Origin: Craspedostauros australis
Taxonomy: Eukaryota
Length of the DNA stretch: 35,932 bases
Assembly: GCA_030167865.1 (NCBI GenBank)
Contig: JALAGF010005167.1
Coordinates: 1 to 35,932 of the forward strand
Reading direction: 5' to 3'
A program made the translations under genes and the position numbers. The stretch's first letter is position 1. Every line of letters begins with the position of its first letter. The notes beneath the pieces are model-generated. The model was not told the origin of the DNA and ran no database searches. It worked only from the letters and a program-made list of their open reading frames with translations. Shown one piece after another: positions 1 through 30,998 of this stretch.

Positions 1-216
1 GCAGATCCACACACACTTCGAAAGTGGATCTGGCAAATGATTGCCTGCATTCAGCAATGCTACAAAGAAGTGGTAAGTGATTTTTTGTTGTGCTCGTTCT
101 GCCTTCCGCAATGTGCTCAATGCCTGTATTGAATTCAACATCTTCTCACCTTTCCTTCCAGATCAAATGGCGCAACCGCTTAAATTCGTCTAAACCTCGA
201 ACTTGCCATGTTACTG
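1..216 (+). mobile_element. Partial Harbinger/ISL2EU-like (DDE_Tnp_4) transposase, copy A, cut by the window start and an N gap
   Basis: Exon 1-72 (ADPHTLRKWIWQMIACIQQCYKEV), intron 73-161 (GTAAGT...TTCCAG, 89 nt), exon 162-216 (IKWRNRLNSSKPRTCHVT). Aligns to 719-935 at roughly 85% nt identity by eye. Confidence 0.8.
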
Positions 217-266: not shown

Positions 267-667
267 TGTTGGAATGCAATGGACATCCTGTCATGTTCTC
301 TGTGTGCGATGACGAGAGAAATTCGGAAACTCAAAAGAACATCGGAGAAACTCGAAGAGTGTCCGTCTTTTGGTGCAACACGTTTGGACTCGTTGCGACA
401 CCAACAAGACGAAAAATCACGTGGGACGACACCGGATCAACACGGTATACTACGGAGAGGATACAAAAAGGAAAACCAAAAGTCGGAAGTGATTACTGCG
501 GGAATTTACACGGGGGCCGCGATAGCACCGTAATAAAAATTGCAGGAAACAATCATACGATAAAATCTAATCATAAAACCCCAACTTGGACAACAATCAA
601 ACAACCTCACACACACACACACTCACTCACTGCAACAACAATCAACCAATAGCTCGACCTCTACAGG

Positions 668-1408
668 TTGCTGCACAAACTCTGGCATTCTGCCTTGGCT
701 AGGATCATAGGGTTTCTAACAGATCCACATACACTTTGGAAGTGGATCTGGCAAATGATCTCATCGATGCAACAATGCTACAAAGAAGTGGTAAGTGGCT
801 TTGTGCTGTGTTTCATTCTGCCTTCTGCAATGTACCCAATGCCTGCATTGAATCCAATATGTTCTCACACTTCTTTCCAGATCAAATGGCGAAACCGCTT
901 GAATTCTTCAAAACCTCGAACTTGTCATGTTGCTGTGGATGGCACTGACTTCCGCATCCGTGAGCCAACACTATTCAGCTCAAAGCGGTACAGCCACAAA
1001 TTCAAGACATCGGGGCTGAGGTATGAAGTTGCGATCTCAATCCAAACAGGTCACATTGTTTGGGCAGTCGGACCTTTTCCCTGTGGCAGGTGGTCGGATC
1101 AAAAGATATTCAATGCCTTCCTCGCGAAGCGACTGATGAAGGGAGAATGTGTTGAGGCCGATGGGGGGTATGGTGGGCCCCATGTGCTGAAGCCAACCAG
1201 CTATGTATCAAAGTCGAACCGACGAGCAAAGTCCAATGCTCGTGCGCGCCATGAAACAATCAATCGGCAATTCAAGAGATGGGCGATCTTGGGGAACACA
1301 TACAGGTCAGATAGAGAACGCCATAAGGAGGTGTTCAAAACAATTGCTTTCCTCACACAACTGTCCATCCAATCTGGAGGCTTCAGCCCATACCAAGTAA
1401 ACTTCTAG
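668..1408 (+). mobile_element. PIF/Harbinger/ISL2EU-like DDE transposase (DDE_Tnp_4-like), copy B, apparently 5'-truncated
   Basis: Catalytic-core motifs VDGTDFRI, YSHKF..GLRYEV, GPFPCG.WSD, ADGGY, RARHETIN..FK.W.IL. An in-frame 90-nt intron 791-880 (GTAAGT...TTCCAG) is read through in the ORF track. There is no ATG start, and the N-terminal FGV.P...IW/KHLLW segment is absent upstream. Confidence 0.85.
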
Positions 1409-2178
1409 AGTTTAGAGTGATTCATATCCTTCTTTTGAATGCCACATTCACTTCATTGTGTCATTCACATGCTGCAAACAACTCACAGATGCGGCACCGC
1501 TGACGTGGAGCCACACAGGTGGAGATGCAAGACCCAACTGCAGCAGATGCTTCTCCGTCATGGTCTCATCCTATTCTCGCGCAAGCTGGTCACGACGATG
1601 GTGATGGTGGTCTGCCGAGTGAGGTGTCAGCACGGAAATAGGAGTAGACAAAGTCTTGTCTGCGCAATGCCCAAAATGTGAAGGACTAAATCCTCACTTC
1701 GACAGTAAATGGTCGAGCGAATCAGAACTGTCAGATCGTGTTCGTGTCTTGCGAACATAGTATACGTTATTTAGCGTTAATATGACGTTTAATTAGTCGA
1801 TCCAGTCAGAGGAGCCTGTGACTGGATGAATCTTGTTTGTTGGGTCGAACACAAGCGCACAGCGCCAGCTTCCGCGCGCAGCGGAGGCAGCGACAATGGC
1901 GCAACAGCATGCGGGCGTTCGACTTTGGTGCTGGTTGTCGCGCGCTGCATTGGTTGACTCCGTGGAGTGTTGCTCTTGGGGATCGTCGCTTCGGTATTGG
2001 TGCTCTGCGACAGAGTATGGTATGTGCTTTGGAGGACTTCCATTGGCCTCGTTCGTTCCGCCCGTCTCCGGAATAGATCGTACTCGACGACTGCAATTGC
2101 TCTATTGACCAGAGTGGAGCGCTTCAGACTACTCCTGGTCTGCGTTGAGAGAAGTCCGAGCTGGAAGGACCAAAACGA

Positions 2179-2275
2179 TCAACAGCAATAGCAACGGCAA
2201 TAGCCACAAGAGCAACAAGAGCAACAACAGCAACAACAGCAACAACAGCAACAACAGCAACAAGAGCAACAACAG
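2179..2275 (+). repeat. AGCAACAAC-type 9-mer/(AAC,AGC) tandem repeat in the presumed 5' UTR of the kinase gene
   Basis: caacagcaatagcaacggcaatagccacaagagcaacaagagcaacaacagcaacaacagc... immediately upstream of the ATG at 2289. Confidence 0.85.
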
Positions 2276-2288
2276 ACAAACTAAAACA

Positions 2289-5200
2289 ATGGGCTGCGGT
2301 GGCTCCAAAGAAGATCCCAATGCCGCGGTGGCGGCCAACTTCTTCCCCAGCGAGGACAACAGCAAGCCTGAGGTCCCGGCCGCGGCCAGCAGCAGGAGCG
2401 CGTCAAGGTCGGAACCTGCGCCATCCACCAACTCGTCATTCGCAGGATCCGCCAACGCCCCCAACAGAGACAGGCCAAGATCCAAGATGAGCCACGTCCA
2501 GGCAGAGACATCGGCGCGCGCCATCGACATGTCGGACAAGAAGCAATCCTCGTCCGGATCCGCCATCATCCACCACGGAAGCGGCAGCGGCAGTCTGGGT
2601 GCCACGGAACCACCGTCGGTCTCACCGCCGCCGCCGATCCACCTCTCGTCTCCGCCCGAGACCATCAAATCTACCAACACCAACGGCTCCAAGAAGCAAC
2701 CCACCCGGCGCAACAACAGCCAGGGCTTCGTGGCGCCCGTGGCGTCGACCAGCTTCGCCCTGGCCGTCATGGAGTCGCACCAGCAGCAGGTCGGAACGCA
2801 GAGTCATCACTCCCAGCAGAGCAACGGCCGCAACAAAGACCCGCCTCCGCCATCCAACGACAACCAACAGGAGTACTATTCGCCGGTGCAACAGAACTAC
2901 GCGGAAGCGGCCCAAGAAAATCCGCAACAGCAGAGGCACTACTTTGATGATTCCAGGTACCGCACCGATCAACAACAACAACAACAACAGCAGCAACAAC
3001 AACCACAGCAACCGCGACAGCAACGACAGCAACAACCGCAGCAGCAGCAGAGCAGGATACCGGATCCTTACACATCGCATCAGTCACAGCGTCGACCACC
3101 CATCCAATTGGCCGACGATGATTTCTCGGTCGCGCCTTCGCTCGACGTCGAATGCCGCAGTATCACAAAGGTCGAATTTGGCGATGTTTACAAGCAAGGC
3201 AAGAAGGTACGTCTGTGTATCACATATGTTATTCGTGATGTGTGAAATTTCATGTGCTCTGTCATTGCAACTACTTGCTTCAGGATAGATCGTCCAAGTC
3301 CGCCTCGTCTCATGTTTTTTTTTCATTCTCTTCGAATCACATCAATCAAACAATCGCACAACCAAACCACGAACGTACATGCCAAACTCCATTGCACTTT
3401 ACCTGTACCAAACACAGTTGGGTTACGGCGCGTTCGCAGAAGTCTTCCTCGCCACGCACCGTCCCACAGGCAAAGAGTACGCCATCAAGAAGGTCGACCG
3501 ATCCAAGATGTTCTGGGGTGACCGCGACGCGCTCAAGGACGAGATCGCCAACCTCAAGAAGGTTCGTGAAGGACCCAACATCGTCCAGCTCTACGAAGTC
3601 TACGGCGAGCAGGATTACTGCTACCTCGTCATGGAATGCATGCTGGGTGGCGAGCTCTTTGATCGCATCATCGAAAAGAAGACCTTCTCGGAGGCTGAGG
3701 CCAGGGAATGCTCGCGCTGCATCCTCTCGGCCCTGCAGTACATGCATGAACGGCGCGTCGCGCATCGCGATTTGAAACCGGAGAACTTGTTATTGGCGGT
3801 ACGTTGATCGGGTTGGCAGAGAGTGATGTCATTGTGCCTGTGTACGCTTGTGGTGGGATGGGCTCTTATTTTGTGCTGATCTACTGCGACTGTATTCTCG
3901 TTCTCACCAATGTTTGCGAATTGCTTCGTTCTCATACTCTACTTGATGGTGTGTACATGCGTATGCATTCGTTCATTTACTACTGTCCCCGTTCCTGTCT
4001 ACTCTAACAATAACAGGCGCCCAAGGCATTGCTGCCGGTCAAGTTGGCTGATTTTGGCTTTGCCAAAGCAATAGGAGAGCGCAACGGTTGCCGCACCCTG
4101 TGCGGAACGCCTGGATACTTGGCACCGGAAATTCTCGAGCGCTTTCCTGCCTACGACGTGAAGTGCGACGTTTGGAGCGTGGGCGTCATCCTCTTCCTCC
4201 TCCTGGGCGGGTACCTCCCATTCGACGACGAGCAAGAAGACAAGGTCTTTGACAGGACGCGAAACGGACAGTACGACTTCCGCCCGAAGTTCTGGAAGAA
4301 CATCACTGCGGGCGCCAAGGACCTCGTGGCGCAATGCCTGACGATCAACCCCATGAAGCGATTATCGTGCACGCAAGCTCTGCAGCACGAATGGATGACC
4401 CGTTCCGAGACCAAGGAGCTGGAATCCAAGCAACTCAATGTGGACAAGCTCAAGAACCTCATCGAAGGCAAGCGCAAGATGAAGGCCGCAGTCACCACGG
4501 TACGTGCGATGGAGCAGGCGGTGACACTACAAGTATACTACTTGCGAAGAACAGCAACAGGACACAATGTCACCCCCAAAGTTGACATGCACTCTTTTGA
4601 CCATCAGGACGCTCCCTGTCAAAATACTTGTGTACCATATCGGTGAACCTTGTTCAGTCCACGCACCGTTCCCTCTTTCGCTGACTCACACCTTTCGACT
4701 CTGATTATCTTTCTCCACACATTCTGTCACCTAATTTCGCCTTTTGGTGTTGATGTTGGTATTGATGTTGGTGTTGTGCTGTTCCATCTCCATACCACGC
4801 ACAACGCATCCATAATCTGTCACTTTCTGACCGTGCGTGCTTCTATATTCCTTCGCAATCGTTCCGTTCTGTGATTGATTGGTCGACCGATCGGTTGGTC
4901 GACTATGAAATAAAAAATGCCGCGCAATACTCTGTACTCTGCCCCATATTCATTTGATTCTCACCCACACAGCTCATGGCGGCGAACCGTTTTCAGCAGC
5001 TCAACGACGACTTCAGCACGTACTTGGACAAGCGAAGGAAGGACTCGGTTGTTTCGCATTTCTCATACATGACCGGAGGCACCCGTGGCACTCTGGCGAC
5101 CATCCAATTCAAAGCCGACGGACCGTCCGGCAAACCGTTCACTAATTTCTACATCGTCGGAGAACTCGTTGGCGAAGGCGGCTTTTCGAAGGTCCACAGG

Positions 5201-7081
5201 TGCATACGAAAGAAGACCCGCGAGTCGTACGCCGTGAAGGAGATTGACAAGAAGCTCATGGACAGCAGATCCAAGGCAAGTCTGAAGGACGAGATCACGG
5301 CGCTGAAGAGGCTGAGGGGTGGACCGCACATCATCCGGCTGCTTGACATCTTCGATGAACCGCAGTCGCTCTTCCTGGTGCTCGAGGAAATGAAAGGCGG
5401 GCATCTCCTCTCGCGCATCGTCACCAAGGAGGTGTACACGGAGCGTGAGGCACGGCAGGTGTGCAAAATCCTGTTCTCAGCGCTTGACTACTGCCACAAG
5501 AAGCAGATCGCGCACCGTGATGTGAAGCCAGAGAATCTGCTGCTGGTGGAGGAGAATGATGACACGAGCGTGAAAATTGCAGACTTTGGATTCGCCAAGC
5601 GAGTCACTCACAAGAACTGCCTTTCCACGCTGTGCGGAACAGCCCAGTACGTTGCGCCGGAAATTCTGGATTCCAGAGTGGATGGATACGACCACAGGGT
5701 TGACATGTGGTCCGCTGGTGTCGTGGCGTATGTTCTGATCGGAGGATACTGTCCCTTCGACGGGCCGCTGGAGGATGTGGCCAAGAGCATCATCCGTGGA
5801 CGCTACGAATTCCACCAAGATGTGTGGGGCCCGATATCAAGCGGGGCGAGAGAAATGATCACCGGCCTCCTCACCGTCGATCCAAATCGTCGGTACACGG
5901 CGGAGGCGGCCCTGAACTGCGGGTGGATGGAGATCGAGGAGGAAACCCTCAGCTTGCGAGATCTGTCGACAACGCAGGAGATCATCCGCAAGCACCTCCC
6001 GGCGCTCGCCAAGGTCAAGATGGCCGCCAACGCAATCATGACGACGAACAAATGGATGTCGTTGGCTGGCATCGTGACGGGAAAGAAGAGGGGCGTCCAC
6101 GATGAAGAATCAGTCGCCGATGCCAACCGGGACTTCAGCAGCGAGTTCCGATGGGGCGAGCAGATTGGCGTCGGTACCTTCTCCGTGGTGCACGAGTCAA
6201 GGCGAAAGGGAGGCAGCGAGGTTTACGCCGTGAAGCGAATTTCCAGAAACGACCTGCACCCAAGCGACGCGGTTGCATTGCATGACGAGATTGCTGCCTT
6301 GAAGAGCGTGCGACAGTGCGATCAGATCGTCAGGCTGTACAAGGTGTTCGATGAGGATGACTACACGTTCCTGGTTCTGGAATACATGAAGGGCGGTGAC
6401 CTGATCGACCGCATCATCGAGAAACGACATTACACGGAGTTCGATGCTCGCGAGGTCAGTCGCAAGCTGCTTCTGGGCGTTGCGTACTGCCACGAACGCA
6501 GAATCGCCAATCGCAACCTGAAGCCAGAAACCTTGCTACTCCAGGCGGGCAGCGATACCGACGTGAAGATTTCAGACTTCGGCTACGCCAAGACGGTCCA
6601 CTTCCCCAACTCACTGCGCACGCAGTGCGGTACGGAGGGATACGTGGCACCAGAGATCATCGCCCATCGTCCAGCCTACGATGTGCCATGCGACATGTGG
6701 AGTGTCGGAGTGATCATCTATATCGTGCTGGGTGGTTACCGCCCCTTCCGAGGCGAAGGTGAGGAGGTGATGCGCATGATCCGTTACGGAGAGTACAAGT
6801 TCCACAAGAAGTACTGGAGTCACGTGTCGAGCGATGCCAAGAACCTGATCCGGTCCATGCTCACGGTCGATCCGGAACGCAGAATCACGGCAGAAGATGC
6901 CCTGAACAGCCAGTGGCTTCGGGCCGACACGTCCACTCTTGGTACGGAGCTGGCGCGCGACATGGATGACCTGAAGGTGCTGAAGGAAGCGAAGGCCAAA
7001 GTTAAGGGCGCCGTGAACACCATCATTGCATCCAACAAGCTCCAAAGCATCGGAGGTCTGAGAGCGTACCAGGACTTCTAA
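2289..7081 (+). CDS. Triple-kinase-domain Ca2+/calmodulin-dependent (CAMK group) Ser/Thr protein kinase, N-acylated, ~1296 aa
   Basis: Exons 2289-3206, 3418-3798, 4017-4499 and 4973-7081. Introns 3207-3417, 3799-4016 and 4500-4972 are all GTACGT...CAG and phase 0. Splicing restores YKQGKK|LGYGAF, ENLLLA|APKALLPVKLADFG and KAAVTT|LMAANRF. Kinase domains lie at ~3189-4397, ~5150-5929 and ~6146-6919, each with a Gly loop, AxK, DFG and APE. Starts MGCGGSK. Confidence 0.92.
2970..3050 (+). repeat. CAA/CAG repeat encoding a poly-Q/Q-rich tract in the kinase N-terminal region
   Basis: caacaacaacaacaacaacagcagcaacaacaa... translates to QQQQQQQQQQQPQQPRQQRQQQPQQQQ. Confidence 0.9.
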
Positions 7082-10000
7082 ACGGTTCTGCGTCGGTGAG
7101 AATCGGATGGACTCGTCATCAAGCCACGCGCAATGGTGAAGCTGTGGATGTTGCGGATCGCTCGATGGGAGCCAATGATGTGAGAAAAACGCAGACGGAC
7201 GGATGAGCGAACGAACGAACGCAGACGAACAAATGAATGGACAACCAAAGGCAGCAGCCAGAGACATGAAGACGAAGGCAGAGCATTAGCGAGGTCATGA
7301 TGGAAAGGAAAGAAGGAAGGGAGGAAGGTACAAGGAAGCAACAAGGAAGGGTGTGTTGGGCGGAGGCGAAGGTATACGTTTCGTACAGGATGTAAAACTG
7401 GTGATACTCTTAAGATGTCTTTTCCACAATTCAATTTTTTGGATACCGTTGGTGCTCATTCGACTCGTTGTCTGTCTGGAACACTGTGTCCAAAAAAGTG
7501 GGAGAACACGAACACTGACAGACCTTCTCTATTGTCTGCCTGTCTGCCAATATGTATGTCTGTCTGTATTCATAGATGCCTGCATGGATGGATGTCTGTA
7601 TGCATGTATGTCCATGCAACAGAACTTCACCATTGTTCTTGACAACAGCCAGAAACGTCCAACATGACAAACAACAAACGATTGACAGTGTCGCAGATGT
7701 CATCTGATTGCACTGACGACAGGTCCATTCTGCTTGCGCAAGCGAGGAAGTCCACAATCATGAACTGCCTGTTCCATCGCTCAATGAGTACAATAGAGTA
7801 GAAGCATCCCGATGTCATCTGTGGGTGCTCTCGCACAGGTTCACCATCAATTTGGGAAGCGCCTACTTGGTGGAGCGGAGAACTCATAGTCGTACATGCT
7901 TGGCCACTTTGTGTGGAGTAGTCCATTAGTGCATTCGATGCGGTCATTGTACACTTTAAAACGAAGCGCGCCCCAGAAGATAGATTCGGTTTCTGCGTTT
8001 GGCGTTCAGCTATTTGGCGGAATGCTCCAATCAACAATTCATGAGTGCTATTCGCTCAATGCGGAATGGAGTCGGCGGACCATCGCCAATGGACCATGGC
8101 AGCGGTAGTTTCGAAGAGGCGAACAGTCGGTGATTGTTTTGCTCGTTGGTTATCTTTCCCTCTGGACGGAGATGGTGGATACATGGATGGGTAGCGCACC
8201 GAAGTGTACGGACTGCTCTGAGTGGAGCACTCCATCCGAGTTGTCGGCAAGGTGGGTTCTCACCTTCTCCCGCAATGGATGGAGTGCGCGATCTCGTTCT
8301 TTTGTTACCATAGATCGTACATTTCGTGTTCATCGACACAAGCGCAAAAGGAAGGGAGCACATCTGGCGTCTTTCACTATTCTACGACTGCGAGTGCACA
8401 TGATGTCGAGGTTGGTGCGTCATAACCAACCGCACGGCTGCGCTACGCATACCCGCATCATCTACGACCCCAGCCACGATCGCTATCTCTTCGGCTACCA
8501 CTACCCCTGCGTTGGCTACGATCACGTACAGGCACTTGTCCATCAGCCCTCACGATCAACCCTGCACTCCCTACTCTACCCCAGAGAGTACACTACCTCA
8601 CCCCATCCAAGACAAAACTTGGGACGATTTCGACGCTGTTCTCCAATCTACTACACGCGCGAGATCGAGGCTTGATTGTTCCCCGAAGCAGGACGAGACT
8701 GGGTCAGCCCACTACACTGGCGTGTGCCTGTGGATTGCGGAGAATAATCTTTGCTATCCTCCTCGTACGATCTATGAGAACGGAGGCAGATTCCACACCA
8801 GGATGGAGATCTGTTCGTCTTGACGGACAAGGCACGCACATCCACGGAATCATCAAAAGACTCTCCGGATTGGTGCGCGGCTTGCGAAACTGCGCATGAA
8901 CACCGGCCTTCCCTCTGTTGCGGAAGTATCACAAAACCATGCGTGCAGACATCCGTGAATGCCGAAAGCCTCATCCTCCCGCGATAGGTGCAAATCTCAA
9001 CACCAACCAATCGAAAGCGGACTGGTACGAGTACTTGTAGTGCACCGCAGTTGTATCATCACGTCGGTATGTGCGCGATGGCATGAATCATTTTGCCCAC
9101 AGCCATCATCAATGTGTGCTTGACGTGCTTCTACCAGCTCCATCCCAGGTACGTGTCGAGGGCGATTCTGCCTCTCGCACTCTCGCTCGTACCTGTGAGC
9201 TCCGCTGCGACCTGGGTTCCGCCATGGTCACAATTCAAGTCCATCGACTTGCGAGAATCTTGTGCTGCTCCGAGCATTTTAGTGCCTCTCTCTCTCTGGG
9301 GTCTTTGGCTCGTCATCCGCCATGAAGCAAATTACGCTCCATGACAATCGCGCGCGGGCATTGGCGCGCCAAACGCATTTCCATGTGCCGGTACTCGATC
9401 AGACCTTCAAACCATTGTTCTGCCAGCGTTTGTGCATACCGACAAGCGCTTCCACCCCGCCAACCACCACTGACGGCCACAACAGCAGTTTCTCCAACAG
9501 GACCAACGGAGAGAGCAGTGTCTTTCGATGTTTGCCAATGTTTCCACGAATCCAAAGAATGCCCGAGCCTAGGTAGTGGGAATTCCCTCTCTTGGACCAC
9601 TTTTTCGCACAACTCGCATGCTGCTCACCCTCTTGGTAAGGTGAGCCTCCGACCGCGACAAGGCGAAGCATTGCGCTTCGCATTCTGCGTCGAACTCGTC
9701 CTGTGTCGTACGACCCATGAGGTACATCAGAACGTGGTTGTTTGGGGATGGCGGAAGGATATCTCACACGCATAAACTTAGCTAAGCCTTCGGCGAATCT
9801 GTGAATGGTGAGCGAAATGTCATCAGACAAGACGCGCACGCTGGGTTTGTCCTGTGGGTGGTTGTTCTTGTCTCCAACTGCCTTCACAAACAGAGGTTTC
9901 GTTTTTCGCAGAAGTTGTTGCGTTCGATGTTTGCACAACTGTCTCCGTCGGGTACACGGCAGTTGGCACTTATGAACCCCCCAAGCGCGTGGACCACACC

Positions 10001-17812: not shown

Positions 17813-20056
17813 TCATGCCGTTGGTGCAGAGGACAAGCTGTGCTTCCAGAGTAGTTCGGTGATGTTGATCCAGAACAGCTCCTCCTGTTCTTCCATGCGT
17901 GCTTGTGCTCCGATTGCCATGCTTTCTCCAACATCTGCGGCTGAGTCGACATCAGCTCCAACGCTCGCATGTGCTGGACAGATGCGTTGTCTTTTGGACA
18001 TGGTGGGTGTGTCTTGGTCAGCCTCCACGTCAACCGAGCCATGTTCAACTTCGCGATGAGCATCCTCTTGACTGTAGTCATGGCCTTGGCCATGGTCATG
18101 GCTTCCAGCCATTGCCTCGCTCTTTCCTCCGAAGCTCTCCGTGTTTGCCTGTGTCGCTGTGCGGCAGCGACGATGCCCAGCGAGACTATCCTTGGCGTGC
18201 ACTGTGCGACAGAAGATGCTAGCGCTCGCAGACTTCTTTTCGTTCAATGTCTCCGATAAGGCGAGGTTGACGAAGAGCCGGTTGAGGCAGCTTTCTGCCT
18301 GATCGCTGTCGCCCAGAGTCAGATGGAGGATGGCAAGGTTGTTCATCACGATGCTGCTGATTCCTAATCGTTGCTCGTCGTAGAGCTCTTGCGCCATCTG
18401 TACTGTGTGCGCTGTGGCCGTGGTATGTACGCGCGGGTTCGACACAACGCCAGCCAAAGTCGTGGTCGTCGTTGCTGTAAGCGTTGACGTTGTTGCGAAG
18501 GTGTCATGAAGTGAAGGCGGTTGGTCACGATGGGTCGTGCCAAGTTCGTGGTATGGCAGCGCTTGGTCATATTCCTGAAGGCTGGTTGCCGAAGTCAGCC
18601 GCGTTGCAGCCGTTGTGGCCGTTGTTGGCATTGAGGCGTATGGTGGCGATACCTGATCCAGCTGCGGCTGTTCTTGGGGTCCGACGCTGTGCGAATGGCA
18701 CGAGGCAAAGCTATGGATGCTCTGCTGGTACAGTGCGCTGGCCTTGAGGAGGAGATTCAGCTTCTCCTTCTGGATCTGCTTGTGCGCGTTGTCAGCTTCG
18801 TGGTCCTGATCTGACTGATCGACAACGGGAAGTTGGGGAACTGGATTTGGAGAAGAGTACGAAGGATCCGTGTCTCCACTTGAGCCGGCAGTGACTGTAC
18901 CCGCGCCTGCGTGCGTAGGCGATGCAGCCGAGTTCTGCTGCTGCCGCTGCTGTTGCCGTTCGTCACAGTTCAGCGCTGGTTGAAGTGCCTGAACATGATG
19001 CAAGAGAGCAAGATTGTACAGCAAGACCTGGAAGATCAGGTCTATATTTCGGTGATGCTGCTGTTCTTGCTGCGCAGAAGATAGGGTGAGTCGTGCTGCA
19101 CCATCACCGACAGTTGATCCGCTCTCGAAGGCGCAGTCCAAGGATCGGCGCCGACCTCCATCCCGATGCAAGGTCTGATCGCGATGCTGGATACCGTGGG
19201 GCGGACCGGATTGCTGGCACGGTATAGCACAGGCGCACGTTCGATGGTCGATGCCATTTGCTTCTCGAAGTGGCACGAGGTCAGCGCAGAAGTGCTGTCC
19301 GATCTTGGTGTCGCCCGCGCTGCACGAGCAGGGGCAGCAGGAATGGTAGACGTCAGGGCAGCACAAAGCCCTGGGCGTCAGGCCAAGCACCTGGAAGCAA
19401 GTTCTGTGGTTGATCCCATCGGAGGGGAAGAACTGACCATTCTGCACATCGTGGGCATGCACCTCGATTGCCGTCAGATGATCGTCGAGGCGCGTTTCTC
19501 CGCCGAGCATCGTGCGCGCGCATTCGCAGTCTGGAGGCGGTTGGGACATGAGCATCGAGGCATCGCTGACACTACAAGTGTTGCGTTGCAACGCCACGAG
19601 CGCCGATGCATAGTGGTGGAGAGCACCTTCGTAGTTGCCGTCAACGAAGGCACGGGATCCTTGGTTGAGGAGGTTGAGCAAGGACATCGTGGGCTGATTC
19701 TGACTCTGCTGCTGGAATATGAGAAGGCTCGGGTCCTTGCAGCGGCCGGGTTGGGATCGTTGTCGTTGATGATAATCCGATTGTTGCTGTGGCTGTTGCT
19801 GTGGCTGGTGTTGGTGTTGTGCGGTTGCAGCTGCTGCCGTGGGCATTGTGGTTGTTGCTATCTCCGAAGTGCGAAGTTCGTGAGGTTGCGGTGCTTCCTG
19901 AGCATGTGTATTTCCATCCCCGCCAGAAGGAATCGCCGCGAGTGGTTCACAAGCCCCGCTCTCGTCGCAGCAGTCGCCACAACGCTGATCTGGTCCATTT
20001 TGACATTGACACCGGCGTTGGTCGCGAGGGTCCTGTTGGGACTGATGTCTGCGCAT
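17813..20056 (-). CDS. TPR-like helical-repeat hypothetical protein of diatom type, paralog 2 (up to 747 aa; alternative start at 19687)
   Basis: 747-codon ORF with motifs LNQGSRAFVDGNYEGALHHYASAL, LLYNLALLHHVQAL, KASALYQQS, IVMNNLAILHLTLGD..AESCLNRL and C-terminus ELFWINITELLWKHSLSSAPTA*. Q/T/H-rich spacers separate the motifs. Confidence 0.8.
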   Translation of the reverse strand: MRRHQSQQDPRDQRRCQCQNGPDQRCGDCCDESGACEPLAAIPSGGDGNTHAQEAPQPHELRTSEIATTTMPTAAAATAQHQHQPQQQPQQQSDYHQRQRSQPGRCKDPSLLIFQQQSQNQPTMSLLNLLNQGSRAFVDGNYEGALHHYASALVALQRNTCSVSDASMLMSQPPPDCECARTMLGGETRLDDHLTAIEVHAHDVQNGQFFPSDGINHRTCFQVLGLTPRALCCPDVYHSCCPCSCSAGDTKIGQHFCADLVPLREANGIDHRTCACAIPCQQSGPPHGIQHRDQTLHRDGGRRRSLDCAFESGSTVGDGAARLTLSSAQQEQQHHRNIDLIFQVLLYNLALLHHVQALQPALNCDERQQQRQQQNSAASPTHAGAGTVTAGSSGDTDPSYSSPNPVPQLPVVDQSDQDHEADNAHKQIQKEKLNLLLKASALYQQSIHSFASCHSHSVGPQEQPQLDQVSPPYASMPTTATTAATRLTSATSLQEYDQALPYHELGTTHRDQPPSLHDTFATTSTLTATTTTTLAGVVSNPRVHTTATAHTVQMAQELYDEQRLGISSIVMNNLAILHLTLGDSDQAESCLNRLFVNLALSETLNEKKSASASIFCRTVHAKDSLAGHRRCRTATQANTESFGGKSEAMAGSHDHGQGHDYSQEDAHREVEHGSVDVEADQDTPTMSKRQRICPAHASVGADVDSAADVGESMAIGAQARMEEQEELFWINITELLWKHSLSSAPTA

Positions 20057-22281
20057 CCTCTCGTAGCAATGGTAAGAGTGTTACTGTAGTAGTACAGGCG
20101 ACTCGTATGCTGCCTGCGTGGAAGAACACACGGGACCGTCTGCTTGTTGATGTCTGCCTCGGGTAGTCGCCCTGGTACGCGTATGTCCTTGCGAGCACTG
20201 TACTGTCTTGGTATGTACTCGTACGAGCTACGTTTGCATCCCAATACAGCTGCCAACCTTCTCACGATCGATGGTCTACTGTCAGGTATTACACGAGAAT
20301 ATCCTCATACATGCGTCTTGCGTCCTATTCTGCTGTATTTCTCTTCGTGTTCGAGTATACTCTGTTGCGCCGTGTTGAGTTGTAGTCTCTGGCTTGCCGG
20401 CTGTGCTTCTCTGCTCTGCTTTGTTGTTCTTTCCTCTCTTTTGCCGCGCAAGGATTCTCTTTCGATTGTTTCTTGGTGTGCGTTTCCACTCCGCGCCTGG
20501 TTCGTTGTGCTCAGCACAACAAGTTCCAGTGATTGCGGCGCTGGCGGCGCGGTTGTTACCACAGATGCATGGAACACAGCCGTACCACTCGTAGTAGTAC
20601 TCGCGAAGCACACCCACGTCCCGCGAGGGTACCCACGACACAGTCAGCCATCTTCCTGCGAAACATGACAGCTGTCCAACCACCCCCAGGCGCACCCGGA
20701 GCCCCTCAGTCGCGATTTAATGCTCTTCTTGGTCTCGCATCACTGAGCACCAAACCAAAAAGGCACAACGTTGACAAATGTCACCGACCATGGTTGGTAC
20801 GAGCGTGTAGGACTACTACTACAAGGCCACAATGGGAACAACAGGCTGTATGTGTGCTTGTGGCGAGGACGTAAAATCCCAATGCCACAATGCCACACAA
20901 CACAGAAACATGACCAGATGCTTTCTGTTCATTCCTCCTCTCTTGTTCCCTACTCGCAGGTGCAGAAAGCGCAGTGATGATCGACTGTGACTGCGACACA
21001 CAATGGTGCACAACGAAATATTCTCAAACCTTTCGCTGCGTATCCGCAACGGCGGAGAGAGAGAGAGAGGGAGAACCCATCATTCCCATCGTCGATGGGT
21101 TTCATTCCATGCCACCAGTTGGTTCTGCACTGAGTTCATTCCACTCCTAAGGCGATTGTTGTCATCCCATACATACTATTCTTCGTTTCATATTATGGTA
21201 AGCATTCATTACGGATAACCCCTCTGACAGCTCATTACGTCGCACTCTCGGCAATTGTATTGTTCTCTCTCCAAAGAGAATGTTCCATGTCCCGAGGCTC
21301 TCCCCACCACCGTTCATCGATCCTAATGACAGCAACAACTGTGTGACCCTTTCGCTCATTTACACAATGTGATATCGATCGTATGGAACAATACTCAATC
21401 TGTGTTCTCCAATCCATACCACACGTACGTGGATGGGACGTGCAAGCGTACCCACATCCCACAATACGGGTCGAACTGCGAGCGATGATTCTCTGCAAAG
21501 CAAAGCGCAGCAACTCTTTGCAAATACGACGCCTTCTCGTCATCGCTATGAGGTCGTCAAAATCGGTTCGTCTCCTGTTGCGTTGCCATCCTCTTCGACA
21601 GCAGCGTGGGTGTCGTGTCTTGTGCCATCTCATCCATCCTGCGGCTGTGGTGCCGCAATCCAGCGATGGCCAATGAGTGACAACGTATGCGTAGGGGATC
21701 GTTGTCTCCCGTTCACGGGGACGACCGGACCATCATCGGGGCACGGCGTGTGCTCCAATTGCACGAGTACTAGCTACCCTATTGCAAAAGTGCTCTTGCT
21801 CTGGAGCACAACGCCCCCATTTCGTACTGATGCAACGGAGCTCTCAATGCGTGAGCGCCATGATAGCTGGTGCGGTCACAGGGTCTAATGCGACGTCCTG
21901 GTCATCGCCCATACCATGATCGTACATGTGCGAAGGCTCTCGATGCCTCCTCTCCCCTCCATTCAAAGTGTTGTTGTGTGAGAACAGATGCCTCGCCGGG
22001 ACCGCGCAACCCATATATACGCGCTATATATATGTAGGTGTTGGGGAGGGCAGTATTGTCCATCGCTTTCACGTCGCCGTTTTTCGGCACCAAACCGAGG
22101 TCTCGGAGGTACCACAATGCCATTCTACGTGTCTGTCTGCCCTGAATGTGGCGCACAAAGGAAGAGTGGATTGTGCTGGTGGTCGTGTTGATCCGAGTCT
22201 GGTGGCTCCTCATCAGCGCCAGGCTTGGTGCGGAAGGTTCTCGACAGAGTACGAGAACGTTGATTCACAACCGCCAGCGTT

Positions 22282-24095: not shown

Positions 24096-24823
24096 CAGTG
24101 GAGTGCAGCGGAGTGCAATGCAGTGCCCATGAAACGTGCTCTTCCCCTGTGCGGCCTTGCGTCCACCCTTTCGTCGAAACGTGGACCCAGCAGAATTTGT
24201 TGCAGTGTATTCCATTATTACGTATATTAATTATTTTACCGCTTACCCCGAAGCGGCCTGGACAATCGACTCGATTGACTTCGTCGAGTTGCCATGACGT
24301 CAATTCTTGTGGCGTCTTGGCAAAGAGCAAAAAAGTCGTTGTGGACACTGCCTCCAGCAACCAACAAAAAATGACGACGCAAATGACCGTCACCAAAGAA
24401 CAAGTTGAGACTGTAGATTTGCGGAAATAGAAAGAAGATTGCAGGCGATGCCAATGCTCTTGATGCGTCGATGTGCCATCATCTTGCAAGTGCTCGTCTT
24501 CGTCTCCAAGCCGTGACCCTTGCCGCAGCTCGTCATCGTGCCTTCGTCGTCCCCACAATCCATCCAGTTTCGTTTCTCAAGGTGCCTTTGCCATTACAAG
24601 TACGTACGACTCCTCTACCAACGCTCCCAGAATTCGACCCTTCACTTTTGCTCGGAATCAACTTTCAACTTGCGACTTCCGAAGCCTTCACATCATTCGG
24701 TGAGGAATAGATCGAAGCCACACGCAAGCACAACACCTCATCGGCACATCGGCGACATCAAGGTTGTGACGGCTGTCATTTCAATCATACCATTCTCGGC
24801 ACATCCAAATCGCATCCGGCAGC

Positions 24824-26359
24824 ATGAAGATCATCAACGTGGGAGACGAGGTCAGATACTTGAAGAGGGAATCCATCGACGTGCGGTTCCACCAGTTCTC
24901 TTCGCTGGGATACAGCCCGGGCGAGAACATCTACTCGCCGACCTTCAAGTTCCATGATCTGGAGTGGAAGCTGCGACTGTACCCGGGTGGTGAGGAGTCC
25001 CAGCACTCGCTGCAATCCGGCATTTCCATGCTCGCCATCTACCTGCACGTCGACAAGGCGTCGTGGGCAAAGAGCCGGCGGTCGCACTGCAACGCCACGT
25101 TCACCATCAGCATCCCCAAGTTGGGCACCAAGGCGGGGCCGGGCATTCACACCTTCCGCTCCTCCGATCGCGCCGGCCACACGGGACGCGGGTGGAGCGC
25201 CTTCGCGCGACGCACAACGGTGCTGAATGAAGGCTGCACAAACGACAGCCTCTCCGTGGTGGTGACGTTGGAATCGTACGATGAATGCCCCGGCTCGTGG
25301 TCGCCGCCTGTGTGCTTCAACCGCGATGGACTCCGACTCTTTTACAACCAGGTCAACGCCGACGTCACGTTCGTGGTGGGCGGCGCTGCAACTGTCAAGG
25401 ACAGGACCAACAACCGCGAGGTACTCATGCGGTCCGCGATCGTCGATCGTCAGGGTCCCATCTACGGCAATAATCGACAAGCTTTGTCGAACAGCGATTC
25501 CGACGATGCCAGCAGCAGCAGCAGTAGCAAGAGTGGCAGCGATCAGAGCTACGGGCAAGAGGAGTTCAAGGTCAACAGCACCATGTTGCTGATGGCAGCA
25601 CCATCCATCGGGGACATCCTCATGGAACGCTGCAGGGCCGCTCCCAACATGTGGCAATGCAGCTCGAACAGCGGCAGGTTTGCCAATGATGACGACTGCA
25701 ATACCATGACTATCCCGCTGCCCAACGTGAATCCCAAGCATTTCCGATCGATGCTGCGTTTCATCTACAGCGGCGACACGTCCTTCTTGGCCTCCCCGGC
25801 TGCGGAACACCCCAGCATCGGCGGCAATAGAGCCACCGGCGCCAACTCCATGAACGTGGACACACATGTTGCCCGGTCGCGGCTCGCGCAGCAGCGGTAC
25901 AAGGATTTCCAAGATCTGCTGGTCGTCGCCAACGAATTCGGATGCTGGAAGCTCAAGCTGCTGCTGGAGGCCCGCTTGATCGACGAATTCCTCTGCTACG
26001 CAGCATCCATCGATCTGCTGCTCTTCGCCGATTCCTACAGCTGCGCCATGCTCAAGGAAGCTGCCACGCATACGATCTACCGCGAATCGGCATCGATCCT
26101 GCAGCACCCCGATTTCGGCATTCTGTGCGAATGCAGCGCACTCATCAAGGAGCTGCAGGAATACTGCACCGGGCAGGGCAAGACGCACAACGATGGGATC
26201 TTTGATGATTACTCCAAGATGTCCGTCGGCGATTTGTACAAGATCCTCGATGAACGTGACGACATCTACTTGGACTGCGACCTCAGCCGTCTGACGCTGT
26301 TGCGAAAGGTCCGATCGATTGTGTACAATGGCGCGACGCCGAAGATGGGATCCTCCTGA
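24824..26359 (+). CDS. MATH-BTB/POZ domain protein (SPOP/TDPOZ-like, putative Cullin-3 substrate adaptor), 511 aa, intronless
   Basis: MATH-like VRFHQF...SPTFKFHDLEWKLRLYPGG...LAIYL and GRGWSAF. BTB motifs ADVTFVV...FKVNSTML...IPLPNVNPKHFRSMLRFIYSG...LLVVANEFG..KLKLLLEA. BACK-like DLLLFADSYSCAMLKEAA. Confidence 0.9.
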   Translation: MKIINVGDEVRYLKRESIDVRFHQFSSLGYSPGENIYSPTFKFHDLEWKLRLYPGGEESQHSLQSGISMLAIYLHVDKASWAKSRRSHCNATFTISIPKLGTKAGPGIHTFRSSDRAGHTGRGWSAFARRTTVLNEGCTNDSLSVVVTLESYDECPGSWSPPVCFNRDGLRLFYNQVNADVTFVVGGAATVKDRTNNREVLMRSAIVDRQGPIYGNNRQALSNSDSDDASSSSSSKSGSDQSYGQEEFKVNSTMLLMAAPSIGDILMERCRAAPNMWQCSSNSGRFANDDDCNTMTIPLPNVNPKHFRSMLRFIYSGDTSFLASPAAEHPSIGGNRATGANSMNVDTHVARSRLAQQRYKDFQDLLVVANEFGCWKLKLLLEARLIDEFLCYAASIDLLLFADSYSCAMLKEAATHTIYRESASILQHPDFGILCECSALIKELQEYCTGQGKTHNDGIFDDYSKMSVGDLYKILDERDDIYLDCDLSRLTLLRKVRSIVYNGATPKMGSS

Positions 26360-29913: not shown

Positions 29914-30998
29914 TCAGACCTCGGCATACATTTCTTGAAGCTCCAGCGATGTGTCTTCGTCAAGCGTTGAGCCTGGTTGGATATCTTCCAAAGGGATTGG
30001 CGAGATGTCGATCAGGGGTGGCAAAATGGCAGACGTTGGCGTTGCATTTTGCGGATTGGACCAGACGAACGAGGTCTCGGCCGACGATAGGAAGCTGAGG
30101 TCTCCCACGGAGATGCTATCGAGACTGTCTGGGCTGGGCAGGTTGGCCAGGTCGGAGTTGGCAGGGGCTGTGCGCACGTGAGGGGCCTGTGGACGTTGGT
30201 AGGTCTTCTTGCTGCAATGCTGCTCGACCCTGGCTGGTGGTTGAGGAACAGTTAGATGAAGTGGCGAGAGAAGCGACGCGAAGGCGATTACGGATGTGAG
30301 AATTAGCATGTCTTGGATTGAATCTCGGGTGAAGGAGTCAAAACAGGAACGGCTCGGCTTCCAACACATCGTTGGAGAAAGCAGACACACGGGCATCTCA
30401 ACAATGGGAGGAGCATGTCGTACTTACTGAAAGTCAAGTGAGGCGGGACAGTGAGAGAGAACTTGGTCTGGCTCTTTGGGCTTGTTGGCTTGATCACAGT
30501 CTTTTGTTTCCTGGTGTGCACTGCCTTCGCAAGCCGCTTCGGGCTCTTGGTCTTCTTTGGAGCCTTTCTGGCAGCAGCCTTGGCGGAGGGCGAATCGGTT
30601 GCAACCATGGCTGCCCCCTCCTCCCTCTTGTTTGCCTTGCCGGCCAAGTCGCGGATGCGGTGCTGGGCCTTCTCCACAACACGAGCTTCATCCAGCAAGC
30701 GCCAATGCTGTCCATCGTGGATGACGAACTTCGGGATGACGCCATCGACAGGAATGCGGGCGTCTTGAACGAGTTGTCTGGCCACCGCCTTCTTGCCACC
30801 ATCTGCGCTGGCTGCGCGGAAGTCGTCAACGTGAAGCAAGGACATAGCCAAGAACCTCGCGTTGCCCCGAGAGTTTTGCGTGCCCTTCCCCTTTCCACTG
30901 CGGATGTCCAAGGGGTGAGGTTCACCATCGAGGAGTTGGAGCTGCTCGATGGGAACTTTGGCCCTGGTGGAGAACGATGGTTGAGATGTCGCTGTCAT
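29914..30998 (-). CDS. DUF6824-domain protein (diatom-expanded family), 2 exons, ~296 aa
   Basis: Exon 30998-30428 has PHPLDIRSGKGKG..SRGNARF...KKAVARQLV...KFV...WRLLDEARVVEKAQHRIRD (DUF6824 pattern) plus a K-rich stretch. A phase-1 intron 30427-30234 (GTAAGT...TCTAAC...CCACCAG) joins in frame to exon 30233-29914, an S/D/P-rich tail ending MYAEV*. Confidence 0.82.

What the first reader, a model, noticed from the sequence alone, without database searches (positions are those of the whole stretch)
2289..7081. One polypeptide carrying three tandem CaMK-type kinase domains
Seen: four ORF pieces that the track lists separately join through three canonical phase-0 GTACGT...CAG introns into one ~1296-aa protein with kinase domains K1, K2 and K3. 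Established: two-kinase proteins (RSK/MSK, JAK, GCN2, plant tandem kinases) are known, while three catalytic-type kinase domains in one chain are rare. Inference: this may be a self-contained, membrane-anchored Ca2+/CaM phosphorelay in which the domains activate one another. All three keep the activation-loop Thr before L/QCGT (RTLCGT, STLCGT, RTQCGT), equivalent to the CaMKI/IV activating site. It is the strongest candidate for an undescribed system in the window.
Basis: partly seen in the sequence, partly recalled or inferred. Interest (0 to 1): 0.78.

Follow-up and report, generated by a model that had tools for sequence, protein, structure and literature searches.

The report
Diatom protein with three CaMK domains
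This is a real four-exon diatom gene for one 1296-residue protein carrying three CaMK1-like kinase domains, an architecture shared by many pennate diatoms, and its third domain has lost the catalytic aspartate and probably regulates rather than catalyses.

Summary
Exons 2289-3206, 3418-3798, 4017-4499 and 4973-7081 join through three phase-0 GTACGT...CAG introns into a 1296-aa ORF. Pfam finds a kinase domain split over exons 2 and 3 and two more in exon 4.

The joins are supported by comparison, not by RNA of this organism. The model aligns without gaps at all three junctions to orthologs, including MMETSP transcript ORFs. A 1313-aa ortholog maps collinearly onto the four exons. Four environmental contigs each carry one uninterrupted three-kinase ORF.

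The architecture is a conserved family, not a one-off. 55 of 64 three-domain proteins, the window's included, are collinear K1-K2-K3, and each domain forms its own clade.

The main correction concerns K3. Its HRD triplet is NRN, and 1 of 99 sequences in the K3 clade has HRD, against 61 of 61 for K1 and 82 of 83 for K2.

My reading: an N-acylated CaMK1-like protein with two catalytic modules and one pseudokinase-like module, each followed by a CaMK1-type regulatory helix. The proposed "phosphorelay" is untested. Six literature searches found no description. I rate it a new variant of tandem-kinase proteins, of moderate interest.

The parts
2166..2282 (+). 9-nt repeat tract (8 overlapping copies in register, period 9) in the presumed 5' UTR, ending 6 nt before the ATG
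   Evidence: family D1; sequence
2289..3206 (+). Exon 1 (306 aa). Starts MGCGGSKE (Gly2/Cys3 acylation-type motif). Continues with a low-complexity Ser/Pro/Gln-rich region without a Pfam match, then the conserved DDFSVAPSL motif and the first 10 residues of K1 (3177-3206).
3207..3417 (+). Intron 1, 211 nt, GTACGT...CAG, phase 0
   Evidence: gap-free junction
3418..3798 (+). Exon 2 (127 aa): N-terminal half of kinase domain K1 (Pkinase profile 7-131 of 263). Contains G-loop LGYGAFAEV, AIK Lys and the catalytic loop AHRDLKPEN at 3760-3786.
3799..4016 (+). Intron 2, 218 nt, GTACGT...CAG, phase 0
4017..4499 (+). Exon 3 (161 aa): C-terminal half of K1 (Pkinase 137-263, ends at 4397). Contains DFG and activation loop RTLCGTPGYLAPE at 4092-4130. 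Also holds the first half of the K1 regulatory helix (GKRKMKAAVTT, 4467-4499).
4500..4972 (+). Intron 3, 473 nt, GTACGT...CAG, phase 0. It splits the conserved post-kinase motif. Homolog P0268 carries an in-frame insertion starting VR and ending Q at exactly this site, read here as a translated retained intron.
4973..7081 (+). Exon 4 (702 aa plus stop). Holds the second half of the K1 regulatory helix (LMAANRFQQLNDDF, 4973-5014), the linker, K2, the K2 tail, K3, the K3 tail and the conserved C-terminal RAYQDF.
5138..5929 (+). Kinase domain K2, with all canonical catalytic residues present (AHRDVKPEN at 5510-5536, DFG). Activation loop STLCGTAQYVAPE at 5624-5662.
5990..6064 (+). K2 regulatory segment (KHLPALAKVKMAANAIMTTNKWMSL), which aligns to the CaMK1D regulatory segment
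6134..6919 (+). Kinase-like domain K3. Retains G-loop, Lys, alphaC Glu, DFG Asp and activation-loop Thr (RTQCGTEGYVAPE at 6617-6655). Its catalytic loop is degenerate.
6509..6532 (+). K3 catalytic loop NRNLKPET, in place of HRDLKPEN. The His, the catalytic-base Asp and the metal-binding Asn are all replaced.
7001..7042 (+). K3 regulatory segment (VKGAVNTIIASNKL) with 1-5-8-14 hydrophobic spacing, inside a predicted long helix

Best explanation
Window 2289-7081 (+) is one four-exon gene. It encodes a 1296-aa member of a conserved pennate-diatom family of triple CaMK1-like kinases. Shown: the protein starts with a Gly2/Cys3 acylation-type motif followed by about 290 residues of low-complexity sequence. 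It then carries three kinase folds that arose by internal triplication of one CaMK1-like unit. Each fold keeps the activation-loop Thr and is followed by a basic, amphipathic helix. The K2 tail was aligned to the CaMK1D regulatory segment; for the K1 and K3 tails only the hydrophobic pattern was examined. K1 and K2 keep every canonical catalytic residue. K3 keeps the nucleotide-binding residues (G-loop, Lys, Glu, DFG Asp) but has NRN...T in place of HRD...N, and this loss is conserved across the family. Inferred mechanism: the protein is tethered to a membrane by N-myristoylation and palmitoylation. K1 and K2 are the catalytic engines, held off by their tails and released by Ca2+/calmodulin plus activation-loop phosphorylation, as in CaMKI. 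K3 is a pseudokinase-like module that still binds nucleotide and still receives activation-loop phosphorylation. It would act as an allosteric regulator, a docking platform or an extra calmodulin site rather than as a third catalyst. My odds: single gene and protein 0.93; K3 catalytically impaired 0.7; calmodulin as the input 0.45.
For: Gene model: the spliced ORF is 1296 aa with phase-0 GTACGT...CAG introns. Pfam shows half-domains that complete each other across intron 2 and two more domains in exon 4. Alignments are gap-free at the junctions. Identity to the 1313-aa ortholog P0267 is 80.6% (1029 of 1276 columns), with the same MGCGGSKED start and RAYQDF end. tblastn hits are collinear. Four of 6 related environmental loci (L001, L004, L005, L006) hold one uninterrupted ORF of 1053-1414 aa with three full domains; the other 2 are short fragments. 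Family: 29 of 29 scanned homologs of 1008 aa or more have 3 Pkinase stretches. 55 of 64 three-domain proteins, the window's included, are collinear with clade supports 1.0, 1.0 and 0.998, and K1+K2+K3 form one clade at 0.976. The window's domains are 42-48% identical to each other. CaMK1 likeness: CaMK1D is the best solved-structure sequence match for K2 and K3 (E about 2e-56), and the K2 tail aligns to the CaMK1D regulatory segment. Foldseek gives target-normalised TM-scores of about 0.9 to autoinhibited CaMKII, CASK and DCLK1 domains. K3 degeneration: 0 of 55 collinear proteins have H-R-D in K3. Asp is replaced by Asn in 43 of 55, while Lys, Glu, DFG Asp and the T-loop Thr are kept in 55 of 55. 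By clade, HRD is found in 61 of 61 (K1), 82 of 83 (K2) and 1 of 99 (K3). K3 is nevertheless the best-conserved domain, 90% identical to P0267's K3. Folds: all three domains are confidently predicted (mean pLDDT 83.8 for the window's K2-K3 and 82.1 for ortholog P0001), with a helix after each domain. Tails: net basic, with bulky hydrophobics at 1-5-8-14 in the window.
Against: No RNA of this organism spanning a junction was seen, so isoforms cannot be excluded. Two are conceivable: intron-3 retention would end a K1-only protein at the stop at 4644-4646, and an ATG lies at 4976-4978 just inside exon 4. Calmodulin binding is inferred from pattern only. Across the family the anchor positions are only moderately conserved: K1 tail 41-51 of 55, K2 tail 17-48 of 55, K3 tail 28-37 of 55. 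The tail helices have low to moderate pLDDT. Twelve of 55 K3 domains keep the Asp (IRD, VRD or NRD), so K3 may be active in some paralogs. By recall, kinases lacking the catalytic Asp can keep weak activity (HER3). The acylation motif is absent from many family members' predicted N-termini, though some of those may be truncated models. pTM 0.58 for the three-domain ortholog gives no confident fixed arrangement of the three domains.
Confidence: 0.55

Rival explanations
1. One reading: three catalytically competent kinases in one chain form a self-contained relay, each domain phosphorylating the activation-loop Thr of the next.
For: The activation-loop Thr is kept in K1 (54 of 55), K2 (55 of 55) and K3 (55 of 55). 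Tandem arrangement in one chain is conserved. By recall, RSK works as an intramolecular relay.
Against: K3 lacks the catalytic Asp, the HRD His and the catalytic-loop Asn in this window, and 1 of 99 K3-clade domains has HRD. At most two links could therefore be catalytic. No evidence of cis- or trans-phosphorylation was obtainable. By recall, CaMKI-type T-loop sites are written by a separate CaMKK.
Confidence: 0.12
2. Two genes or two independent transcripts: a K1 gene (2289 to about 4646) and a K2-K3 gene starting at the ATG at 4976-4978.
For: Intron 3 is 473 nt, about twice the length of the others. The exon-3 frame stays open until 4646, and exon 4's ORF has an ATG two codons in. Twenty two-domain K2-K3 proteins exist in the collections.
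Against: The conserved motif KRKMKAAVTT|LMAANRF spans the junction and aligns without a gap to all homologs with that region. Uninterrupted three-domain ORFs occur on four mRNA-sized contigs and in MMETSP transcript ORFs. P0267 maps collinearly across the junction. The 697-720-aa K2-K3 proteins are the size of a bare exon-4 ORF, so they look like ORF calls on intron-containing DNA.
Confidence: 0.04
3. All three domains, K3 included, are active and work independently (K3 by a non-canonical mechanism). The tandem array only raises local kinase valency at a membrane; there is no inter-domain regulation.
For: Long low-confidence linkers and pTM 0.58 for the three-domain ortholog suggest beads on a string. 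K3 keeps Lys, Glu and DFG Asp in 55 of 55. Independent tandem duplications of CaMK-like domains recur in other protein families, up to 5 Pkinase stretches.
Against: Family-wide replacement of the HRD His and mostly of the Asp in K3 only, under strong conservation of the rest of K3, points to a changed role. pTM 0.79 for the K2-K3 pair hints at a defined pairing, although no inter-domain error map was available.
Confidence: 0.18
4. The post-kinase helices are autoinhibitory or linker elements that do not bind calmodulin. Regulation would be by phosphorylation or by another Ca2+ sensor.
For: The CaMK1 Trp anchor is replaced by Met or Val in the window's tails. Conservation of anchor positions is moderate. 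No EF-hand or IQ family was found at E up to 0.01.
Against: The K2 tail aligns to the CaMK1D regulatory segment. All three tails are basic with 1-5-8-14 spacing in this protein. The closest folds are calmodulin-regulated kinases.
Confidence: 0.3

Closest known systems
CaMKI (CaMK1D and CaMK1 structures, e.g. 6qp5, 1a06)
   Same: Best sequence match of K2 and K3 among solved structures (E about 2e-56). The activation-loop Thr is at the equivalent position, and the K2 tail aligns to the regulatory segment.
   Different: CaMKI has one kinase domain per chain. Here there are three, plus an N-terminal acylation-type motif and a 290-aa low-complexity region. K3 lacks HRD. The Trp anchor of the calmodulin site is Met or Val.
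RSK/MSK two-kinase proteins (a source names the Fistulifera solaris homolog P0046 'ribosomal protein S6 kinase alpha')
   Same: More than one kinase domain in one chain. RSK and MSK chains are among the top matches for K2; that they are the CaMK-like C-terminal domains is recalled.
   Different: By recall, RSK pairs an AGC domain with a CaMK-like domain of separate origin. Here all three domains are each other's closest relatives (0.976), and no AGC C-terminal family appears in Pfam at E up to 0.01.
JAK and GCN2 kinase-pseudokinase chains, and CASK (a CaMK-family pseudokinase)
   Same: A degenerate kinase-like domain sits beside active kinase domain(s). CASK's CaMK domain is among the closest folds (target-normalised TM-score 0.84-0.89).
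   Different: A different kinase group and domain order from JAK. By recall, CASK has lost the DFG Asp; K3 keeps the DFG Asp and has lost the HRD Asp. In JAK the pseudokinase precedes the kinase; here it comes last.
Plant tandem kinase proteins (e.g. wheat WTK3/Rwt4, described with three kinase pieces PKF, Kin I, Kin II) and two- or three-domain kinases in plant kinome surveys
   Same: Chains with two or three kinase-like domains, some of them degenerate (passages of bioRxiv 10.1101/2024.08.30.610185; passages of PMC4378628).
   Different: By those papers, the plant proteins derive from receptor-like-kinase lineages and act in immunity. The diatom family is CAMK-group, arose by internal triplication, and carries CaMK1-type tails.
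Oomycete dual-kinase proteins (PITG_04344, PITG_05862, PITG_07317)
   Same: Stramenopile proteins with tandem kinase domains of the same family (passages of PMC3019232).
   Different: Two domains rather than three. In the passages read, that paper reports no triple-domain protein in oomycetes or in the diatom it compared.

Membership tests
Eukaryotic protein kinase (Pfam PF00069) | Profile match above the gathering score | tested here: met
   Exon 2: 129.3 bits. Exon 3: 109.4 bits. Exon 4: 450 bits with 2 stretches. Cut-off 31.7.
Eukaryotic protein kinase (catalytically competent) | VAIK Lys, alphaC Glu, HRD Asp, catalytic-loop Asn and DFG Asp all present | tested here: met
   Met for K1 and K2: all are present in the window and in 54-55 of 55 family members.
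Eukaryotic protein kinase (catalytically competent) | The same residues in K3 | tested here: not met
   K3 reads NRNLKPET. His, Asp and Asn are replaced; Lys, Glu and DFG Asp are kept. HRD occurs in 1 of 99 K3-clade domains.
Pseudokinase (K3 only) | Loss of at least one of VAIK Lys, HRD Asp or DFG Asp | tested here: met
   HRD Asp is Asn in the window and in 43 of 55 family members.
Pseudokinase (K3 only) | Lack of phosphotransfer activity | not testable with these tools
   Needs an enzyme assay.
CAMK group, CaMKI-like | Kinase domain closest to CaMKI | tested here: met
   CaMK1D is the top hit for K2 (1.8e-56) and K3 (2.3e-56) among 177,635 distinct PDB sequences. K1 was not searched on its own because it is split by an intron.
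CAMK group, CaMKI-like | Activation-loop Thr at the CaMKK site | tested here: met
   The T of (R/S)T(L/Q)CGT aligns with the S-T of CaMK1D. It is kept in 54-55 of 55 for each domain.
CAMK group, CaMKI-like | C-terminal autoinhibitory and calmodulin-binding segment | tested here: inconclusive
   The K2 tail aligns to the CaMK1D segment. A 1-5-8-14 pattern and net basic charge occur in all three tails, with moderate conservation and no Trp anchor.
CAMK group, CaMKI-like | Ca2+/calmodulin-dependent activity | not testable with these tools
   Biochemical.
CDPK | EF-hand calmodulin-like domain fused to the kinase | tested here: not met
   No EF-hand family at E up to 0.01 in any exon.
RSK/MSK | N-terminal AGC kinase plus C-terminal CaMK-like kinase | tested here: not met
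   The three domains form one clade (0.976). The only families reported are Pkinase-type.
N-myristoylated / palmitoylated proteins | Met-Gly start with Ser/Thr at position 6, plus an adjacent Cys | tested here: met
   MGCGGSK is at 2289-2309. An MGC start is shared by P0267, P0269, P0270, P0271, P0272, P0004, L001 and L006. The consensus is recalled, and the modification itself is not testable here.

The most novel reading that the evidence does not exclude
A diatom-specific single-chain Ca2+ decoder. Two active CaMK1 modules and a nucleotide-binding, phospho-switchable pseudokinase module would each carry their own calmodulin site and be tethered to a membrane. They would act as an intramolecular coincidence detector or cascade: K1/K2 phosphorylate K3's activation loop, and K3 allosterically gates K1/K2. 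One polypeptide would then give the cooperativity that animals obtain from the CaMKK-CaMKI pair or the CaMKII holoenzyme.
Probability: 0.15. Interest if true: 0.75.

Novelty: new variant of a known kind. Interest (0 to 1): 0.5.

Why it matters
Diatoms use fast Ca2+ signals to sense nutrients and stress, but their Ca2+ decoders are little known. Work so far has centred on EF-hand CDPKs (passages of PMC13187674). This family is a different candidate decoder: calmodulin-type, probably membrane-tethered, conserved in pennate diatoms, with a kinase-kinase-pseudokinase layout for which I found no description. It also offers a natural case of internal domain triplication followed by loss of catalysis in one copy, which makes it a tractable model for how pseudokinases arise. 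For annotation, public names such as 'ribosomal protein S6 kinase alpha' for a homolog are misleading. ORF callers also split the gene, giving 697-720-aa K2-K3 'proteins'.

Tried and rejected
RNA evidence: the run search listed no RNA holder. The single run X1 is kept as contigs and its kind is only guessed. When laid, one contig covers 6596-7298 with no differences, and short pieces from other kinases touch conserved motifs. No contig bridges any junction, so it says nothing on splicing or expression.

The window's own genome is not held.

Organism names of unnamed or truncated records could therefore not be completed, and the taxonomic range (centric diatoms, Phaeodactylum, Thalassiosira) stays open.

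Complex prediction for K2 against K3 was never accepted because the queue was full. No result exists.

The ESM Atlas look-up gave only generic CAMK clusters. Earlier-findings look-ups returned nothing.

An R-x-x-S site in the K1-K2 linker (KRRKDS) was considered as an autophosphorylation site, but it is kept in only 20 of 55 members.

Foldseek found no solved two-kinase arrangement resembling the K2-K3 model; EGFR-KDD and JAK match only at rmsd of about 20 A.

Rejected readings: CDPK (no EF hands) and RSK (no AGC domain).


Full report
**Observation**

The window is eukaryotic DNA with an assembly gap at 217-266. On the + strand four open pieces lie in series: 2109-3245, 3289-3807, 4014-4646 and 4958-7081. 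The ATG at 2289 is the first in its frame and starts MGCGGSK.

Joining 2289-3206, 3418-3798, 4017-4499 and 4973-7081 gives 3891 nt, or 1296 codons plus one terminal stop. The introns are 211, 218 and 473 nt. Each begins GTACGT, ends CAG and is phase 0. GGTACGT occurs four times in the window and three of these are the donors. Chance expectation is 1.41, and 4 of 100 shuffles reach four.

Pfam Pkinase covers profile positions 7-131 in exon 2 and 137-263 in exon 3, so intron 2 splits one domain cleanly. It finds two complete domains in exon 4. Exon 1 matches nothing.

**Are the joins real?**

No RNA of this organism was available. The run search listed one run of guessed kind, and its contigs bridge no junction. 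The case rests on comparison.

- The spliced protein aligns without a gap at all three junctions to 12 homologs and to 10 long orthologs. These include ORFs that their source labels as complete MMETSP transcripts.
- The best ortholog, P0267 (1313 aa), is 80.6% identical over 1276 aligned columns. It shares the MGCGGSKED start and the RAYQDF end.
- By tblastn P0267 maps onto the window as four collinear pieces whose query ranges abut: 1-323, 316-450, 443-613 and 611-1313. They fall at 2289-3209, 3397-3801, 3987-4508 and 4973-7078.
- Junction 3 cuts through a motif that recurs after each kinase domain (KRKMKAAVTT|LMAANRF) and is conserved across the family.
- One homolog, P0268, carries an in-frame insertion that starts VR and ends Q at exactly that point. 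I read it as a translated retained intron, which would mean the intron position is shared. Its DNA was not seen.
- A scan of metagenome contigs returned six related loci. Four of them (3.8-4.8 kb) each hold one uninterrupted ORF of 1053-1414 aa with three full kinase domains. The other two are short fragments.

I put the single-gene model at about 0.93. Minor isoforms remain possible, through intron-3 retention to the stop at 4644-4646 or an internal start at 4976.

**A conserved family**

Searching with exon 4 found many proteins of 1000-1350 aa. All 29 scanned homologs of 1008 aa or more have three Pkinase stretches. The four scanned shorter ones (657-720 aa) have two.

I cut out every near-full kinase domain from the proteins with two or more domains, added 25 single-domain proteins, and built a tree of 368 domains (FastTree, LG, midpoint root). 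The window's K1, K2 and K3 each sit in their own clade, with supports of 1.0, 1.0 and 0.998. Of 64 three-domain proteins, the window's included, 55 have domain 1 in the K1 clade, domain 2 in K2 and domain 3 in K3.

The three clades together form one group (support 0.976). That group excludes the domains of other multi-kinase proteins, among them a two-kinase protein of the brown alga Ascophyllum nodosum. The window's own domains are 42-48% identical to each other.

The architecture therefore arose by internal triplication of one CaMK1-like unit and has been inherited since. This inference depends on a midpoint root and on a sample gathered by similarity to K2-K3.

The named sources are all pennate diatoms: Nitzschia inconspicua (two paralogs), Nitzschia sp. 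Nitz4, Fistulifera solaris, Cylindrotheca closterium, C. fusiformis and a Bacillariaceae MAG. MMETSP records whose names are cut off in the output as 'Synedr', 'Fragi' and 'Pseud' add to these.

The nine other three-domain proteins belong to different clades. Proteins with four or five Pkinase stretches also exist. Tandem multiplication of CaMK-like domains is thus recurrent.

**What kind of kinase**

K2 and K3 each match CaMK1D best among solved structures (E about 2e-56), followed by CaMKI, CaMKIV, CDPKs, CaMKII, DCLK1 and RSK and MSK chains (by recall the CaMK-like C-terminal domains of RSK/MSK). The K2 alignment runs on into CaMK1D's regulatory segment.

The AlphaFold model of exon 4 has mean pLDDT 83.8 and pTM 0.79. 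Its best Foldseek matches are autoinhibited CaMKII, CASK, DCLK1 and DAPK domains, with target-normalised TM-scores of about 0.9. A model of the three-domain ortholog P0001 has mean pLDDT 82.1 and pTM 0.58. It shows three confident kinase folds, low-confidence linkers and a helix after each domain.

No EF-hand or AGC-tail family was found. CDPK and RSK are therefore not the right labels, although a source names the Fistulifera homolog 'ribosomal protein S6 kinase alpha'.

**The main correction: K3 is degenerate**

In the window, K1 and K2 read AHRDLKPEN and AHRDVKPEN. K3 reads ANRNLKPET at 6509-6532. The alignment to CaMK1D confirms that the His, the catalytic Asp and the catalytic-loop Asn are the replaced residues.

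Counts across the 55 collinear proteins and by clade:

| Feature | K1 | K2 | K3 |
|---|---|---|---|
| Lys, alphaC Glu, HRD, DFG Asp | 55 of 55 each | 55 of 55 each, except DFG Asp 54 of 55 | Lys, Glu, DFG Asp 55 of 55 each |
| Activation-loop Thr | 54 of 55 | 55 of 55 | 55 of 55 |
| HRD His | 55 of 55 | 55 of 55 | 2 of 55 |
| HRD Asp | 55 of 55 | 55 of 55 | Asn in 43, Asp in 12 |
| Full H-R-D, collinear set | 55 of 55 | 55 of 55 | 0 of 55 |
| Full H-R-D, whole clade | 61 of 61 | 82 of 83 | 1 of 99 |

Yet K3 is the domain most conserved between the window and P0267, at 90%. This is the signature of a domain that is under selection but no longer selected for catalysis. It most resembles a nucleotide-binding pseudokinase whose activation loop is still a phosphorylation target. 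Twelve of 55 K3 domains keep the Asp (IRD, VRD or NRD), so some paralogs may retain activity.

**Tails and ends**

In this protein each kinase domain is followed by a net-basic stretch with bulky hydrophobic residues at 1-5-8-14 spacing: MKAAVTTLMAANRF, VKMAANAIMTTNKW and VKGAVNTIIASNKL. Family-wide conservation of these positions is moderate: 41-51, 17-48 and 28-37 of 55. The Trp anchor of CaMK1 is Met or Val here. Calmodulin binding is therefore plausible but unproven.

The MGC start, which by recall matches the N-myristoylation consensus with a palmitoylatable Cys, is shared by the closest orthologs and by L001 and L006. Many other predicted N-termini do not share it.

**Mechanism proposed**

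- Shown: one chain, three CaMK1-like folds, two of them canonical and one degenerate, with conserved activation-loop Thr residues, post-kinase helices and an acylation-type start.
- Inferred: a membrane-tethered kinase. K1 and K2 would be released by Ca2+/calmodulin and activation-loop phosphorylation. K3 would act as a regulatory or docking module. A version in which K3 is a receiver is not excluded.

**Literature**

Six full-text searches found no description of a triple-kinase CaMK in diatoms.

- In the passages read of the Phytophthora kinome paper (PMC3019232), only dual-kinase proteins are reported.
- In the passages read of a 2026 paper on Phaeodactylum CDPKs (PMC13187674), only EF-hand kinases are treated.
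- Plant kinome surveys and a wheat WTK3 preprint mention two- or three-kinase-domain proteins of other lineages (passages).

The other papers were seen as search listings only. Subscription journals and supplements were not covered, so 'not described' holds only for these searches.

**Verdict**

The finding is a conserved but, as far as these searches show, uncharacterised variant of tandem-kinase proteins (kinase-kinase-pseudokinase, CAMK group). It is of moderate interest, chiefly for diatom Ca2+ signalling and for how pseudokinases evolve.

Noticed in passing
window 1-216 and 720-935; ORF 653-1405 (+); N run 217-266: Two copies (85-86% identical) of the 5' part of a gene whose ORF matches DDE_Tnp_4 / DDE_Tnp_1 transposase domains. 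This looks like tandem or nested copies of a PIF/Harbinger-type element, the first cut by an assembly gap.
   Followed up: partly
window 2166-2282: A 9-nt repeat tract directly upstream of the kinase gene's ATG, and a CAG/CAA (poly-Gln) tract inside exon 1 at about 2968-3050. These are possible length-polymorphic sites.
   Followed up: no
P0271-P0274 (orthologs whose names are cut off as 'Fragi' and 'Pseud', plus unnamed relatives): In these orthologs K2 reads NFG instead of DFG and has a degenerate glycine loop (DD in place of GG). K1 carries a long charged insertion. In that lineage K2 may also have lost catalysis, leaving K1 as the only canonical kinase.
   Followed up: partly
P0268: An in-frame insertion beginning VR and ending Q at the position of the window's intron 3, and a second insertion inside the K1 activation loop where the window has no intron. 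These look like translated retained introns in an ORF call on genomic DNA.
   Followed up: no
Window protein: DDFSVAPSL at about 3118-3144 in exon 1, and the C-terminal RAYQDF at 7061-7078: Two short motifs outside the kinase domains are conserved in all 10 long orthologs aligned, with minor substitutions. These are candidate docking motifs of unknown function.
   Followed up: no
P0121 (Nitzschia sp. Nitz4, 1418 aa), P0123 (1802 aa), P0153, P0165, P0275: Other predicted proteins with 4-5 Pkinase stretches. Some may be fused gene models, but they suggest that multiplication of CaMK-like domains is recurrent.
   Followed up: partly
window 24770-26356 (+), 32575-33942 (-), 30306-31166 (-), 17816-20080 (-): Neighbouring ORFs with MATH/BTB, Cation_efflux, DUF6824 and a weak TPR match. 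There is no other kinase and no calmodulin gene among the 12 long ORFs (200 aa or more) that were scanned.
   Followed up: no
window 9148-9154: The only other GGTACGT in the window. It may be a splice donor of a neighbouring gene.
   Followed up: no
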